64,000 bases of DNA from Candidatus Marinacidobacterales bacterium. Lineage in GTDB: Bacteria; Acidobacteriota; Vicinamibacteria; Marinacidobacterales; SMYC01. Shown here piece after piece: positions 3,424 to 36,179 of the stretch. Below the pieces are notes generated by a model. That model was given only the letters and a program-made list of their open reading frames with translations, had not been told where the DNA came from and made no database searches. The stretch is taken from NCBI GenBank assembly GCA_965237955.1, contig OZ250169.1, positions 4,576,001 through 4,640,000 on the forward strand, read 5' to 3'. The stretch's first letter is position 1. Each line of letters begins with the position of its first letter. The position numbers and the translations under genes are program-made.

Positions 3424-5977
3424 TCAAGACTCGGAGCGGTCGACGCGCACCTCAGCAAGGGCCGGATCATTCAAATACGGCCTCAAGTCCGGGTCGTTCT
3501 CGACGTTGAAGATCGCGCCGCCCCGGATGGCGCGTTCCATGTGGTGGACGGTCGCTTCGCGGTCGCCGCAGATCGAATACGCGATCGCAACGATGAAGTT
3601 GACTTCGGCGAGATCGGAGTTCGGCGGTGCCGCTCGTGATGCTTCGTCGACGGCCTCGTCACAACGTTCGAGACCCGCGAGCCCTGCCGACAGGATCGCT
3701 CTCGCTCGATTGTCGTTGGGGTTCACTTCCAATTGTTGCCGCCACAATTCGTCCGCGCGCGTGTAATATTCCTTCGCGGCGGCATCTAGATCGAGCTGAC
3801 GATAGGTGTCGGCAAGGCCGGTCACGTAATGTGGGTCTTCGAGCCCGGAAATTTCGATAGCCTTGCGGAACTGCTCGAGGGCATCCGTGAATCGGCCCAT
3901 TGAGTAGTACACCACGCCGAGATTGTTGTACGCGGGACCATCGGGGTCGATGCCGATCGCGGCCTGAAGCAGAGGCTCCGCCTGCTCCATCTCACCCGAC
4001 ATAAGGTGCACTGCCGCGAGATTGTTGTAACCGACGTCGCTTTTGGGTCTAAGGCGAATGACTTCGCGGAAGAGCGGTTTGGCGGCGTCGAGCTCATCCG
4101 TCTTCGTGTACAGGTAGAACTCGCCCTTGTCCCGGTAGTTGCCCCAATACCCCGGGCGGAGATCGATCGCGCTCTGATACATCGCCTCGGCGTCATCCAA
4201 ACGCCCGCGCTTTTCGTAGGTGTCTGCGATGAGGCGGACGACGGCGTCGTCGGCAGGGGCGAGCGCGAGCGCCCTCTGAAAGGACACTTCGGCGTCCACC
4301 CGCTTGGCCGCGGCCGAGCAAGACGACACCGAGGGCGAGATGAGTTTCGGCGATTTCGGGGTCGAGCATCACTGCGCGGTCGGCTTCGGCGACGGAACGA
4401 GCGACGAGAGCTGGCTCTCTGGAATCGACGTATAGCTCCCACAGCGCCAGGGCGAGTCCCGCATGCGCTTCGGCGAAGTTCTCCTCGGCGTCGATGGAGC
4501 GGCGGAAGGCTTCCGCTGCGAGCGCGTGGTCCTGCTCGGCCTCCCAACCCCATAGATAAGACCGGCCCTCGAGGTAGTTCTCTCTCGCGACATTGCTCGT
4601 AGGCGTATGTCGGTCGTCGCCCTCCCGTGCACCCAACGAGTCGGCGATCGATGTGGCGACGATGTCTGCCAGATCCAGAGCGTCAAGGGTATCAGGGGTT
4701 CCGGTGGTGAGCTCCTGGGGCCACCCGCGCGCATCGCCGTCGCGGCGCATGAGGCTTACCGTGGCCGTCAGCCCGCTCGCGCCCTCGGCCAACTCCGCTC
4801 GCACGATCCACTCGACGTCGAGCTGCTCGGCAACCACCCCAGGATCCTCGTCCCACGGGAAGGTCCTGCTGATAGAGAACGGCGTCACGTCGAGGCCGAC
4901 GAAGTCTCTCAATCGGTCGCTCACAGCGAGTGGCCCGATTTGGCCGACGTTGGTAGCTCCTATTACCGCTTCGTCGCCCCACGGTAGGACGGCAATCGTG
5001 TGTTTCCGCGGCCATAGGATTGCGGCGATGATGACCGCGACCGCGACCAACGCGGCAGCTGTGCCGATGCGCTTGGCGCGTTTGGGTTTCACGACGAATC
5101 GTTCGTACGTCGACGACTCGATCTGGACCCGCGCGCGCTTGAGCTCCTGGACCAGCTCTCTCGTGTCTTCGTACCGCTCGTCCGCTTCTTTCTTCAGGCA
5201 ACGATCGAGTATCGGTTGGAGGCGGCTTGCCACATCGGGCCTCACCGACTCGGAGAGCTCTGCCGCCGGGGAATGGATGATGGCATGCGCGGTCTCGAGG
5301 GTGCTGTCCCGCAGGAAAGGATTTTTTCCCGAGAGCATCTCGTGCAAAAGCACTCCGAAGCTGAAGATGTCGCAACGGTGATCGAGCGGCAGGCCACGGG
5401 CCTGCTCCGGTGCCATGTAGGACAGCGTGCCTTTTATGGCGTCCGAGCGGCTCGGGGCGCGCTCCGTGGTGTCATCACCGAACTCTTCGAAGACGGGCAG
5501 CGGCTGCATGAGCTTCGCCAAGCCGAAATCGATGATCTTGATGTGCCCTTCGTCGGTGACCATTACGTTCCCGGGCTTGAGGTCGCGATGGATGATGCCT
5601 TTGTCGTGTGCGAACGCGAGAGCTTCGCTGATCTCGAGCGCGTACTCGACGATGGTTTAGGGATCGAGTGAGCCTTGGAAGATCAAATCGGTGAGCTCGC
5701 GTCCGCGGATGAACTCCATCGCGATGAAGGTAAAGCCGTCGGCCTCTGCGATTTCGAAGATCGTGGCGATGTAGGGGTGTTCGAGTGCAGCGGTCGCCTT
5801 CGCTTCTTGAACGAAGCGCTTTCGACTATCAGGGTCTGATGTAACGAGTGATTGCGGGAGAACTTTGATTGCGAGCTCGCGACTGAGCTGAGTATCCCAC
5901 GCGCGGTAGACCTCCCCCATTCCGCCACGGCGGATCTCTTCGATAATTTTGTAGTGCGAAAGGGTATTGCCGATCAA
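3424..5977 (-). pseudogene. Ser/Thr protein kinase with TM segment and C-terminal TPR repeats, disrupted
   Basis: [32 protein letters not shown], then a TM helix and TPRs. In-frame TAA at 5657-5659 and a +1 frameshift near 4302. Confidence 0.88.
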
Positions 5978-32115: not shown

Positions 32116-33114
32116 TCAACGAAATCGGGGAATGATTTTGTCGCCATACTCCGCGACGATGCGCTCCTCCTCGGTGTTCATGAGGTAGATGGTGAATTGA
32201 GTGACCCCTGCCTCCTCGAGTGCCTTTAGTTTTTCCACGTGCTGCTCGGGCTCACCGAGGATGCCGAAGCTCTCCACGACATCGTCGGTTACGAAATCCA
32301 GATGCTCGGCGTCCTTTTTGCCGTGCTGCCGATAGTCGTATCCCTTACGCCGATCGATGTAGCCGGTGAGACTCTGAGGCACGAGCTCCGAGTCCCTTCC
32401 GTACTTGTCGACGATGTCGGCGACGTGGTTTCCAACCATGGCGGGAAACCACCGGGTCTGCTCGAGGCAAGCTTCCATGGGATCGATCCAGGCCGGTGCC
32501 GCCGCCATGACGTTGTACCCGGACATATCCCGTCCGGCCGCCTCTCCCGCTTGGACGGCCTGCTCGGTGAACCATCGGCACAGTCCAGGATCGCCGATTT
32601 GCAGTACTAGCCCGTCGCCGAGCTCACCCGCGGCGGCTAGCGCCTTAGGCCCGTACGCCGCGATCCAGATTGGCAGCTCGAACTGGCTCCAGGTGAACTG
32701 CACCTCGGCCGGACAGTCTCCGTAGCGGACCGATTCACCTCGACAGAGCGCCTTGACGGTCGTGATGAAATCGCTCATGCGGGCAATGCTGGCAGGCTTG
32801 AAGCCCATCATGCGGCGCGAGCTGTCACCCCGTCCCACGCAAATCTTGAACCGGCCCTCGCTCTGCTCGGCGAGACTCGCGAAGAGGCTCGCGGCAGCCG
32901 ACCAGTCACGCACGTCGGGATTGGTCACCAAGGGACCGAAGCGAATGGATTCCGTTGGCTCCATGCACATCGCTATGGTCGGATAGGGGTCGCGCCAAAG
33001 AATGTGGGAATCGTAGAACCAGCAATGGCTGAAACCGGCGAGCTCAGCCTGGTGGCAGATTGCCTTCGTTCGCTTCGTGCCCATGTCCCCCTTCAAACAA
33101 ATCGCGAAATCCAT
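32116..33114 (-). CDS. LLM-class, probably F420-dependent oxidoreductase (TIGR03842-like)
   Basis: WFYDSHILWRDPY, GPLVTNP, GRGDS, WFPAMVGNHVAD, GYDYRQHG. Confidence 0.8.
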   Translation of the reverse strand: MDFAICLKGDMGTKRTKAICHQAELAGFSHCWFYDSHILWRDPYPTIAMCMEPTESIRFGPLVTNPDVRDWSAAASLFASLAEQSEGRFKICVGRGDSSRRMMGFKPASIARMSDFITTVKALCRGESVRYGDCPAEVQFTWSQFELPIWIAAYGPKALAAAGELGDGLVLQIGDPGLCRWFTEQAVQAGEAAGRDMSGYNVMAAAPAWIDPMEACLEQTRWFPAMVGNHVADIVDKYGRDSELVPQSLTGYIDRRKGYDYRQHGKKDAEHLDFVTDDVVESFGILGEPEQHVEKLKALEEAGVTQFTIYLMNTEEERIVAEYGDKIIPRFR

Positions 33115-33192: not shown

Positions 33193-33689
33193 AAGAACTA
33201 ACGCAAAGACGCAAAGGCGCAACGTCGCAAAGCTCGTCGCGAGAAGTTGCTCAACGAACTTCATAGACCATTCACCACACGATGGATACCGTCTTTGACA
33301 AGCCGTCTTCCGAAGTTGATGACCAATCCGAGTTTCAGATCCAGTAGGCGCAAGTACGTTAACTCTGGGCCTCGAAAACAGGATTGTCCTCCCTGGCCGC
33401 TTTGCACTCAATGATGACGAGGCCTTCTATAAGCAGGTCGACACGCAGTTCAGCCGCCAGGCGCTTGCCTTTGTAGATGAGCGGTACCACCTTCTGTCGC
33501 TCAACGCCTAGCCCTCGCTGCTCCAGTTCGTAGACGAGCGCTTCTTCGTAAATGCTCTCGAGTAAGCCAGGCCCGCCCAAGGTTCGGTGTACCTCAATGG
33601 CTGCGTTTACGATAATGCCACTCAGCTCGTTCTCGGTCGCATCTCGTCCCTTTGCGCCTCCGCGCCTCCGCGCCTTTGCGTTCGTTCTT
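33193..33689 (-). mobile_element. Candidate GxxExxY mini-element bounded by 40-bp imperfect inverted repeats
   Basis: 33193-33232 vs reverse complement of 33650-33689 match at 32/40; both are built from 8-nt CGCAAAGG-like units. Confidence 0.55.
33261..33642 (-). pseudogene. GxxExxY protein (PD-(D/E)XK nuclease, PDDEXK_3), two frameshifts
   Basis: TENELSGIIVNAAIEVHRTLGGPGLLESIYEEAL...RVDLLIEGLVIIECKA...LTYLRLLDLKLGLVINFG; shifts near 33638 and 33363. Confidence 0.88.
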
Positions 33690-33697
33690 AAAATACG

Positions 33698-35137
33698 TCA
33701 CCTTAATCGCGGATTGAAGTACTTAGCATCCAGATAAAGATGTCCAAATTCCTTCGCCCCGGAGGACGACCCGGCGAAAATACGAGGCTCACGGCTCGTC
33801 TCCCTCCCGTACTGCTGGGCAATCGTTCGGACGGATGCCTCTGCATCTCTATGAGCGAGAATCGCGACCGTGCCACCACTGCCCCCACCCGTTATCTTGG
33901 CTCCGAAAATCCCCTGGGTTGGTCCGGCGGCCCGCGACAGCTCGACCAACCGGTCCGTCCCTTCTGAGCCCAAGCCACAAGCCGAATAACTCGCGTGGGA
34001 CTGATACATCAACTCACCGAGCAGAGGCGCATGTGCCAAGGCATCACCCGAAAGCAAGTGGGCAAAGGTTCGGAGACGGAAGTGCTCGTAGACGGGATGG
34101 GTGGTAGCTTGGCGAACGGGGTAAGTTGCCTCGGGGTCGACCTGGGTCACCGCATCTTCCGTATCACCATATCGCTCGATGAACCGAGCCCCCACCATGG
34201 CCTCCGGCAAATGATGCAAGTACTTTTGCCCGAGCTCGGATGGGGTCAGGTTCGCGAGGTAACCTCCCCAGTCCGTACCCGCCATCTCTTTCAAGATCCG
34301 ATAGCCCATGAACGCCCCCACACGCACGGACCCGTAGTCGGCGCCGGAAACAGCGTGATAGATTCCGGAGTCGATACCCCAAAATGCCAGCTCTTCGGGA
34401 ACGGCCACCGTTCCCTGCACCTCTGCCGGTTGGCACAACAGAGCCAGCAATCGGTTCGCTTCACCGTAGACGGAGCTCATCTGGTCCATGATGCCGCAAG
34501 GCGCGCCCACAACAAGGTTCTCCACCTTCTGGCACAATAGGGCCACCTCGCGTTCCTCGAGCCCGAGGTCAAAGGAGGCATCGATAGCCATCATCGCTGC
34601 CACTTCCAGTGCCGCCGATGAAGCCACACCCTTGCCTTCGGGCAAGCTCGAATGGATGAAGAGCCGGGCCCCCTCCGGGAAAGCCACCGCCTTCTCCCGC
34701 ATGAGGACGAGAAGAGCTCCCGCCACATAGGCTGCCCAGGACGTGTCCGGATCGCGCCGGAAGTAGTTTCTCGCTTCTTCGTAGGTGATCGGGTTTCCGT
34801 CGGCCTCGAAGTCATCGAAAGGCATGGTGAAAACCGATGCGGCGTCGTCTCGTTCCTCACTCGAGGTGACGATGGTCAGCACCCGGGCGGTGTCCCGTTG
34901 CAAAGCAGCCAACGTCGCTTCGCGAGTGGTTAGTTGCAGGACGAGTGAGCCGGAATAGTCCGCGATCCCACCCATGACATCCAGCCGACCGGGGGCTCGC
35001 GTCAGGACCATCGACGCCTTGGGGTTCCAATGCTGGCGCAGCCTCGAACCGTCCACTCCGCTCGGCGCATGGAGGGCTCGGACGAAACGGTCTACATCGG
35101 GCCAATCGCCAACCTTTTCGCTCATCATCTCGGACAT
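33698..35137 (-). CDS. GHMP sugar kinase, L-arabinokinase/galactokinase-like
   Basis: RAPGRLDVMGGIADYSGSLVLQ, PEGKGVASSAALEVA, CQKVENLVVGAPCGIMDQM, GAKITGGGSGG. Confidence 0.88.
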   Translation of the reverse strand: MSEMMSEKVGDWPDVDRFVRALHAPSGVDGSRLRQHWNPKASMVLTRAPGRLDVMGGIADYSGSLVLQLTTREATLAALQRDTARVLTIVTSSEERDDAASVFTMPFDDFEADGNPITYEEARNYFRRDPDTSWAAYVAGALLVLMREKAVAFPEGARLFIHSSLPEGKGVASSAALEVAAMMAIDASFDLGLEEREVALLCQKVENLVVGAPCGIMDQMSSVYGEANRLLALLCQPAEVQGTVAVPEELAFWGIDSGIYHAVSGADYGSVRVGAFMGYRILKEMAGTDWGGYLANLTPSELGQKYLHHLPEAMVGARFIERYGDTEDAVTQVDPEATYPVRQATTHPVYEHFRLRTFAHLLSGDALAHAPLLGELMYQSHASYSACGLGSEGTDRLVELSRAAGPTQGIFGAKITGGGSGGTVAILAHRDAEASVRTIAQQYGRETSREPRIFAGSSSGAKEFGHLYLDAKYFNPRLR

Positions 35138-35153
35138 GCGACGAGTTGTCGTC

Positions 35154-36179
35154 TCAATCCTGCCACAACCCTCGCTTGCGCAGTGCCTTCTGGAACAGAG
35201 GCTCGATTTGCGCCTGGATGTCAACATTGGCATATCCGACCCAGCTCACGTCTGCGGTTACGTTCAAAGGGGCCGACAAGGGGCCGCCGTCGACGTCGGT
35301 CACGACGACTCCAAGCTCCCGCGCGATGAGCTCGGTGCACAAGTCATAGGGATGACAACAGAGGCCCAGGGAAAGGCCTTGCTTGGCGAGAAGCGGTTCC
35401 ACGAGAGGCCGTATATCAGCGGTGAATCGATCGTGCCCGGACATCAACTCGTAAAGTTGTCCACCGCTGCAGATGTATTGATCCTCGAAACAGTGGGCCT
35501 TCCCTCGTTGCACCGGCCCGAGCGCTCCCAGAACGATTTCCTCGTCGATGGCTGCCAGCTCTTGCCGCATGCCGGGGAAGAATCGGGAGACCATGGCAAA
35601 TCCGTGAGCGATGGTCGGGGCACGGGATGGTCTCAGGTCGAGAGCGCTTCTTTCTCCGGTCAAACGGTCATATCGCTCCGCACCGGCCCCTTTCCCCTCG
35701 ATGGTCCAGACCACGTCCGACAAATGCTGCTTGAGGAGTGGGATCTCCGTTTGCACCGCCAGCGCGATATCACCGAGATTCGTGCTCCCGCCTCGATTGG
35801 GGGCCACCCCGGTCAGAACCCAGGAGCTTCGTTTTTGATACATGGTCCCTCGAGTGCCGTCGATCGGGTCGATGATAATGCGCCAAACCGCCTCGTCCTC
35901 GGGTACACCATCAGGTAAGACCATCTGGCCGCCGCGCCCCAACCCCTCGCCGACGAGCACGATGGGGATCTTGGAGGCGATGACCTCGTTGAAATACTCG
36001 ACCAGCGTTGCCTCGCTCACACGGTCGATAGCATAGATCGTATCCCCTTCCCCTTCCCCGTCCTCGGAGATGGCAGCCAACTCGTCGAGGCTGGCCTGCT
36101 CGCAGGCCGCGACGACCTCGCCGCGGATCATCTCGTGCAATCGCCGAATGGCATCGAGCAGTTCGGTAACGTCCCTCAT
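35154..36179 (-). CDS. Inositol monophosphatase/FBPase-superfamily phosphatase
   Basis: [15 protein letters not shown]. Confidence 0.85.

What the first reader, a model, noticed from the sequence alone, without database searches (positions are those of the whole stretch)
33193..33689. GxxExxY nuclease gene packaged between 40-bp periodic inverted repeats: candidate minimal mobile/REP-type system
Seen: the left flank AAGAACTAACGCAAAGACGCAAAGGCGCAACGTCGCAAAG (33193-33232) and the reverse complement of the right flank, AAGAACGAACGCAAAGGCGCGGAGGCGCGGAGGCGCAAAG (33650-33689), match at 32/40. Both are tandems of an 8-nt CGC(A/G)(A/G)AG(A/G)-like unit. They tightly enclose a ~125-codon GxxExxY gene, and the 497-bp unit sits 8 bp after the stop of the sugar-kinase operon. 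Known: GxxExxY proteins are PD-(D/E)XK-fold proteins of unknown function, and I know of no established transposition role. Inference: this is a small selfish element, or a REP/RAYT-like pair, in which the nuclease binds the periodic repeats and spreads into sites just after stop codons. No target duplication is visible, and the gene has two frameshifts.
Basis: partly seen in the sequence, partly recalled or inferred. Interest (0 to 1): 0.75.

Follow-up and report, generated by a model that had tools for sequence, protein, structure and literature searches.

The report
Lone nuclease gene among octamer hairpins
A small, recently broken nuclease-family gene sits in the loop of one of about 90 repeat elements (mostly hairpins) built from an 8-base unit in this genome, and the same gene-plus-repeat pairing recurs across many bacterial phyla, which makes the repeat the likely target of an enzyme family with no known job.

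Summary
In detail: 40-nt arms, 32/40 alike, built from 8-mers, enclosing a GxxExxY (PF13366) gene 8 nt after the kinase stop. One correction: the gene has one frameshift plus a lost start codon, not two frameshifts. Sister strains lack both lesions.

The arms belong to a genome-wide family: 145 arms in 92 elements, mostly gene-less hairpins at gene 3' ends, with only this one GxxExxY gene. The pairing is general. Homologs have inverted flanks in 56 of 77 loci against 2 of 273 controls. The repeat word tracks the protein clade, which spans 15 phyla. Orthologous gaps in relatives are often empty.

The cassette is not a fresh IS. It is single-copy, sits at the same place in a sister lineage and shows no target duplication. 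Four of nine repeat-rich relatives have no such gene. A parallel heptamer family here encloses a non-nuclease four-helix-bundle gene.

Best reading: a REPIN/RAYT- or Ssn-like repeat-nuclease pair with a PD-(D/E)XK enzyme; activity untested. I found no description in nine paper searches. This scan has reported the design many times on other genomes.

The parts
33193..33232 (+). Arm downstream of the gene: A-rich lead-in plus four octamer units (core 33200-33232)
33261..33640 (-). GxxExxY (TIGR04256 / PF13366) pseudogene, 380 nt; a continuous frame would be 126 codons plus stop. D and ExK of the PD-(D/E)XK site are still present
33363..33364 (-). Single frameshift (one base fewer than in sister strains X4 and X6)
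33638..33640 (-). Former start codon position (GCG here, GTG in sister strains), 9 nt inside the upstream arm end
33650..33689 (-). Arm upstream of the gene: four octamer units, begins 8 nt after the kinase stop
33698..35233 (-). Context: galactokinase-like GHMP kinase, last gene of a symporter / galT-like / phosphatase-like / kinase run
   Evidence: kinase hits below equivalog cut-offs
32116..33114 (-). Context: TIGR03842 LLM-class F420-dependent oxidoreductase

Best explanation
The 497-bp unit is the only gene-carrying copy of a genome-wide family of octamer-array hairpins, and the enclosed PD-(D/E)XK-fold protein, broken in this strain, is likely the sequence-specific nuclease that recognises those arms. 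Shown: the anatomy; about 90 gene-less elements at gene 3' ends; gain and loss of hairpins between genera; repeat word tracking protein clade; purifying selection on homologs. Predicted: the nuclease fold. Inferred: the protein reads the fixed CGC..G letters in 8-nt register. It would nick at or next to an arm, probably in hairpin or single-stranded form. Host repair and recombination would then copy arms into new A/T-rich post-stop sites and shuffle units between arms, leaving no target duplication. The gene would only rarely move, by landing in the loop of a hairpin. In this strain the family has no intact partner gene.
For: Homolog flanks: inverted-repeat score >=14 in 56 of 77 loci vs 2 of 273 shifted controls; arms on both sides in 59 of 74, one side in 9, none in 6. 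Word tracks clade: same word class in 2% of protein pairs at 30-45% identity, 86% at 55-65%, 99% at 65-75%; nearest neighbour agrees in 102 of 109; 62 of 70 rows of this gene's clade (SH-aLRT 98, quick tree, 15 phylum labels) carry the CGC word. Hosts: 35 of 50 genomes holding close homologs have >=5 arm matches vs 13 of 250 in a phylum sample; in that sample 18 of 22 repeat-positive vs 80 of 228 repeat-negative genomes have PF13366. Skeleton letters deviate in 32 of 992 positions vs 301 of 992 at the variable positions in partner arms picked without a skeleton filter. Model pLDDT 95.9; matches are PD-(D/E)XK proteins, Cas4/RecB-type among the best; D68, K80 invariant and E78 nearly so in 64 rows. 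dN/dS about 0.07-0.15 in 5 pairs and 0 in one; 3 of 9 pairs saturated. None of 28 Y1-transposase, RT, GIY-YIG or four-helix-bundle positions lies within 1.9 kb of an arm. Ssn nucleases are a tested precedent for this layout (PMC11893778).
Against: No activity was tested. A PD-(D/E)XK nuclease cuts but is not known to join strands (own knowledge), so spreading needs host repair. Four of nine relatives with >=20 arms have no PF13366 match, among them G001 with 130 arms at 91% completeness; a fifth (G017) has only a gene with another word. A parallel family in this genome (126 heptamer arms) encloses a four-helix-bundle gene, a family not known as a nuclease (own knowledge), so the layout does not need a nuclease. 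Word and gene are inherited together, so clade tracking alone does not prove recognition, and kin are not independent in the genome counts. The within-locus CGC vs CAC test was mixed: CAC-cassette hosts had 10 and 5 CAC vs 1 and 0 CGC matches, but one CGC-type host had 7 CAC and 0 CGC and two had 0-2 matches in all. Three distant homologs showed no periodic flanks by eye.
Confidence: 0.45

Rival explanations
1. The hairpins are moved by a shared host or trans-acting machinery, and GxxExxY is one of several cargo or adaptor genes that sit in loops.
For: The same layout encloses a non-homologous four-helix-bundle gene with its own 126-arm heptamer family in this genome. Loops also take in other words and an IS. 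Different periodic hairpins fill the same orthologous gaps in different relatives. Repeat-rich genomes without the gene exist.
Against: Each protein clade keeps its own word across phyla, which pure cargo would not need. Catalytic residues and coding frame are conserved. No candidate mover lies next to any arm.
Confidence: 0.25
2. Domesticated host function like SsnA/NTS: the nuclease cuts incoming or exposed single-stranded DNA at the arms and tunes recombination; spread of the repeats is a side effect.
For: Single copy, inherited in place in a sister lineage; eight Chloroflexota homologs share a neighbour family; purifying selection; precedent in PMC11893778 (sections 5 part 1, 10, 12 read).
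Against: Patchy presence (11 of 41 relatives), 112 neighbour clusters among 143 flanking ORFs, and the gene is broken in a genome with 145 arms.
Confidence: 0.15
3. RNA-level element like the 23S rRNA intervening sequences: the arms pair in the transcript so that RNase III can remove the insert or the stem acts as a terminator or stabiliser.
For: Placement after stop codons, 44 of 92 in convergent gaps. This cassette's sense strand folds at -196 vs -165 kcal/mol for the antisense, with the arms paired.
Against: No bias to G:U over A:C on the transcribed strand: 59 vs 55 in 47 cassettes; 36 vs 44 in 32 co-directional hairpins. Paired arms are less alike than randomly paired arms. No Rfam match.
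Confidence: 0.1
4. Autonomous IS-like element: the gene encodes a transposase and the 40-nt arms are its terminal inverted repeats.
For: Size, terminal inverted arms, two near-identical copies (98% over 834 nt) in one Sorangium genome.
Against: One copy here and no interior match elsewhere; no target duplication; arms 80% alike; hairpin loops are not deletion derivatives of the cassette; 13 of 74 homologs have whole hairpins on both sides; the Sorangium duplication extends about 400 nt beyond the arm.
Confidence: 0.05

Closest known systems
Ssn nucleases with NTS/SRM repeats (PMC11893778; abstract, Results part 1 of 4, sections 10 and 12 read)
   Same: Small single-domain nuclease gene flanked on both sides by a hairpin repeat that occurs in many gene-less copies; homologs carry their own repeat variants; patchy cross-phylum spread.
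   Different: Ssn is GIY-YIG (cd10448) and its repeat is a 20-50-nt palindrome. Here the enzyme is PD-(D/E)XK, each arm is a non-palindromic tandem of 8-mers, and no activity is shown.
REPIN / RAYT (REPtrons, TIRtrons) (PMC3337134 and PMC3733652; passages read)
   Same: Inverted doublets with variable spacers in extragenic space, a single-copy partner gene, one repeat type per enzyme type.
   Different: RAYT is an HUH/Y1 transposase and each REP is itself palindromic. Here the partner is PF13366, arms are tandem arrays, and none of the genome's Y1 matches lies near an arm.
ORF-bearing 23S rRNA intervening sequences, S23p / PF05635 (PMC4990558; search listing and start of abstract only)
   Same: About 0.4-0.5-kb insert with a small ORF between inverted arms; a PF05635 gene in this genome has the same arm layout.
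   Different: Not in rRNA; different protein; no strand bias in arm pairing.
GxxExxY / PDDEXK_3 family (TIGR04256, PF13366; PMC3424549, one table row read: function 'Unknown', multiple transfers)
   Same: The gene is a member.
   Different: The link to octamer arrays is not in that row or in the other papers my searches returned.

Membership tests
GxxExxY / PDDEXK_3 | HMM score over curated cut-off | tested here: met
   TIGR04256 79.1 bits vs 35; PF13366 88.4 and 22.8 bits vs 22
GxxExxY / PDDEXK_3 | GxxExxY motif and PD-(D/E)XK acidic/lysine residues | tested here: met
   GLLESIY, D and ECK present in the window copy; G, E, Y, D, K invariant in 64 rows
GxxExxY / PDDEXK_3 | PD-(D/E)XK fold | tested here: met
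   Model of an intact homolog (L004), pLDDT 95.9; best Z 8.3, rmsd 2.8, 97 aligned (3ijm); Cas4 4ic1 Z 7.7, rmsd 3.6, 100 aligned; no Foldseek hit at E<=0.001
REPIN/RAYT | Partner gene is an HUH/Y1 tyrosine transposase | tested here: not met
   Enclosed gene is PF13366; 20 Y1_Tnp positions (representing 25 matches) are all 1.9 kb or more from an arm
REPIN/RAYT | Inverted doublets with variable spacer, many extragenic copies | tested here: met
   69 inward pairs, 0 outward, loops 9-190 nt apart from this one; 89 of 92 elements outside predicted genes
REPIN/RAYT | Each REP unit has its own palindromic core | tested here: not met
   Arms are direct tandems of D-CGC-V-R-R-G; only a 3-4-bp mini-stem is possible
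REPIN/RAYT | Single-copy partner gene specific for one repeat type | tested here: met
   One PF13366 match in the genome; word tracks clade
REPIN/RAYT | Enzyme acts on the repeats | not testable with these tools
   needs biochemistry
Ssn / SRM | GIY-YIG cd10448 domain | tested here: not met
   PF13366 only; the genome's 3 GIY-YIG matches are 7.8 kb or more from arms
Ssn / SRM | Gene flanked by its repeat in many homologs | tested here: met
   59 of 74 with arms on both sides
Ssn / SRM | Site-specific cleavage of single-stranded DNA | not testable with these tools
   needs biochemistry
Insertion sequence / MITE | Near-identical copies and target-site duplication | tested here: not met
   Single copy; 91 distinct among 103 four-unit arms; no duplication at the cassette; relatives too diverged to see one at other sites
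rRNA intervening sequence | Located in rRNA with S23p ORF | tested here: not met
   Between two protein genes; no Rfam match

The most novel reading that the evidence does not exclude
GxxExxY proteins are a large, naturally diversified set of tiny sequence-specific nucleases, each clade reading its own 8-10-nt tandem word. They spread their hairpins without a transposase, by nicking and host repair, and their genes home into hairpin loops. This would be a third class of repeat-enzyme pair beside RAYT and Ssn. The arms would be kept imperfect on purpose, with a fixed recognition skeleton and scrambled wobble positions.
Probability: 0.3. Interest if true: 0.85.

Novelty: new variant of a known kind. 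Interest (0 to 1): 0.6.

Why it matters
PF13366 is common (99 of 251 genomes in the phylum sample) and has no assigned function. The arms give it a defined candidate substrate with a clade-by-clade word code, so the question can be tested with oligonucleotides and one 126-residue protein. If true, it explains a widespread class of intergenic repeats and offers small programmable-by-clade nucleases. This locus adds a natural intact/broken allele pair at one site in near-identical strains.

Tried and rejected
Assembly error as the cause of the broken gene: rejected, since contigs of two runs match the window exactly across both lesions.

Empty kinase-LLM junction: not found. In 11 kinase orthologs no LLM match followed within the 1.5 kb fetched; four of these loci were cut short by a contig end or a broken kinase. 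The two closest (88-89% identity) diverge about 30 nt before the arm.

Target duplication at gene-less sites: relatives too diverged. Laying strain contigs on a 17.5-kb stretch with three hairpins showed no clean filled/empty joint in the rows displayed; many rows were cut.

Hairpins as internal-deletion derivatives of the cassette: no interior match elsewhere in the genome. RNA-strand selection on the stems: no G:U bias. DGR-like adenine mutagenesis: considered because variation falls on the A positions of ACGCAAAG, but the spectrum is position-specific (C nearly absent at position 1, T rare at 5, almost only A/G at 6-7) and no RT gene lies near an arm; not pursued.

Viral homologs: none confirmed with one query. 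Solved relatives by sequence: 0. Promoter: none by consensus scan; one terminator-like hit at chance level. The careful tree did not finish; the quick tree was used.

Paper searches (9 answered): GxxExxY (3 papers, 2 listed; one passage read, on Cas4 vs GxxExxY annotation near an RT); PDDEXK_3 / inverted repeat (10); REP + octamer terms (35); TIGR04256, 0 papers (60); REPIN/RAYT + novel-family terms, 0 (61); IVS + four-helix bundle (70); PF13366 + repeats, 2 papers (71); REPIN background (79); short tandem + inverted arrays, 0 (86). Subscription papers and all supplements were not seen.

Full report
Observation. The two arms lie where stated and match at 32 of 40. Each is an A-rich lead-in followed by four 8-mers. 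Between them, on the minus strand, lies a GxxExxY gene (TIGR04256; PF13366 in two pieces) spanning 33640-33261, 380 nt. The kinase stop is 8 nt from one arm, the LLM start 78 nt from the other, and no target duplication is visible.

State of the gene. Contigs from four runs of four studies were laid on the locus. X1 and X2 hold contigs identical to the window across both lesions. X4 and X6 hold strains with 5-7 differences over 718-934 nt that have one more base at 33363 and a GTG at 33640-33638. So the window allele has one frameshift and a lost start codon, and both are recent and strain-specific. X1 and X2 also hold a lineage about 92% identical with the cassette next to the same kinase end, the extra base present, and 8 gaps in the arm region (one unit's length). 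The cassette has therefore been inherited in place.

The repeat family. The 8.13-Mb single-contig genome is probably an Acidobacteriota member (inferred). It holds 145 arms of three or more units, against 0 in each of three codon shuffles. A looser scan gave 69 inward-facing pairs, none outward, with loops of 9-190 nt apart from this one; its 58 unpaired hits include false positives. Only one PF13366 match exists. With a home-made gene finder, 92 elements fall into 44 convergent, 41 co-directional and 4 divergent gaps, and 3 inside genes; background gaps number 782, 2251 and 1098 (chi-square p 5e-14). None of 28 positions of Y1 transposase, RT, GIY-YIG or four-helix-bundle genes is within 1.9 kb of an arm.

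Arm anatomy. The unit is D-CGC-V-R-R-G and the outer unit is nearly fixed. In 124 partner arms found without a skeleton filter (11 of 135 seeds had none), skeleton letters deviate in 32 of 992 positions and variable letters in 301 of 992. Of 103 four-unit arms, 91 are distinct. Hairpins with related loops (80% or more) are hardly more alike at variable positions than any two hairpins (0.64 vs 0.58), so units are reshuffled or drift fast. The two arms of one hairpin are less alike than randomly paired arms: 27.7 vs 28.6 of 33 in 28 pairs, p about 0.002 in 69 pairs, none identical over units 2-3. Arm polarity within loop subfamilies may explain part of this. Mismatches show no preference for G:U on the transcribed strand. 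This points to a DNA-level constraint on a recognition skeleton rather than to selection for an RNA stem (inference).

Homologs. Eighty close relatives were fetched from GTDB genomes; 77 had flanks. An inverted repeat scoring 14 or more joins the flanks in 56 of 77, against 2 of 273 shifted controls. In 74 scored for layout, 35 have the gene in a loop as here, 13 have whole hairpins on both sides, 59 have arms on both sides and 6 have none. Their 143 flanking ORFs fall into 112 clusters, with one stable Chloroflexota locus of eight. I added distant homologs: 178 loci had flanks, 139 after dereplication, 109 of them with an assigned word. The word follows the protein: nearest neighbours agree in 102 of 109, and 62 of 70 rows of this clade, from 15 phylum labels, carry the CGC word (quick tree). 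The sets came from few queries and gene and arms travel together, so this shows a lasting package, not recognition. Homolog pairs are under purifying selection. A model of an intact homolog has the PD-(D/E)XK fold, with Cas4/RecB-type nucleases among the best but modest matches.

Genome-level co-occurrence. Hosts of close homologs have five or more strict arm matches in 35 of 50 (50 of 62 intended) against 13 of 250 in a phylum sample; the cassette's own arms account for at most a few. In that sample 18 of 22 repeat-positive and 80 of 228 repeat-negative genomes have PF13366. Against this, 4 of 9 relatives with 20 or more arms have no match (73-94% complete), and one more has only a gene with another word.

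Mobility. Seven gene-less sites were compared with five relatives; six gave junctions, 24 comparisons in all. Fourteen are short gaps without the hairpin and three hold octamer arms in another arrangement. One holds a heptamer hairpin and one a different short tandem; five hold other genes (only the first 260 nt viewed). Hairpins thus come and go between genera, and different families use the same gaps. For the cassette itself no empty junction was found.

A parallel family. The same genome has 126 arms of a GCYGAYG heptamer in 111 elements; one inverted pair encloses its only PF05635 four-helix-bundle gene. Some octamer loops contain CAGGAA arrays, the word of another GxxExxY clade, and one is hit by an IS. 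Loops are thus insertion sites, and the layout occurs with a protein not known as a nuclease. This is the main reason for keeping the cargo rival at 0.25.

Mechanism and comparison. I commit to a repeat-recognising nuclease whose nicks, repaired by the host, spread and shuffle the hairpins (0.45). It works like Ssn/NTS (PMC11893778) and REPIN/RAYT (PMC3337134, PMC3733652) but is a member of neither, as the enzyme and the repeat structure differ. It is not an IS.

Novelty. Nine answered paper searches found no description of the pairing; subscription papers and supplements were not seen. Earlier notes of this scan describe the same design on many other genomes and gave me the Ssn and intervening-sequence leads. 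What this locus adds is the intact/broken allele pair, the arm statistics and the two parallel families in one closed genome.

Noticed in passing
G000:C1:3408337-3408830 (L124): The only PF05635 four-helix-bundle gene sits between inverted GCYGAYG heptamer arrays; 126 such arms in 111 elements genome-wide.
   Followed up: partly
L273:1991-3077 and 4369-5458 (G000:C1:3428490-3431957): A 1087-bp IS-like element with TGCCTTGGTGCAC ends gives 128 BLAST hits in G000, mostly 98-99% identical, and is 97-99% identical to many copies in G008 and G013, which are other genera. One copy sits 7 nt inside an octamer arm.
   Followed up: partly
L272:15871-15995: An unrelated ~125-bp repeat is shared with G008 and G013 at 87-96% and is skipped by a contig of run X6, so it is polymorphic between close strains.
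   Followed up: no
L276:6620-6843: Another ~225-bp repeat with dozens of 84-95% matches in G008.
   Followed up: no
G000:C1:8125515, 6260353, 2789559: Long octamer-hairpin loops contain CAGGAA arrays, the word tied to another GxxExxY clade for which this genome has no gene.
   Followed up: partly
G000:C1:1-1000000 and 3500000-4000000: Octamer arms are nearly absent from these stretches (1 and 0); heptamer arms are absent from the first megabase.
   Followed up: no
L014, L048, L059 vs L022, L023, L047, L068, L069: At one shared Chloroflexota locus both arms read CAC-type in some lineages and CGC-type in others.
   Followed up: partly
L329 (G008:C1:623900-625200): Arrays of three different words (CGCAGAG, CCAGGAA, CACGAAG) are stacked in one intergenic gap.
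   Followed up: no
window:33698-40317: Leloir-like cluster: sodium/solute symporter, galT-like, phosphatase-like, galactokinase-like on minus, aldose epimerase-like gene divergent on plus.
   Followed up: no
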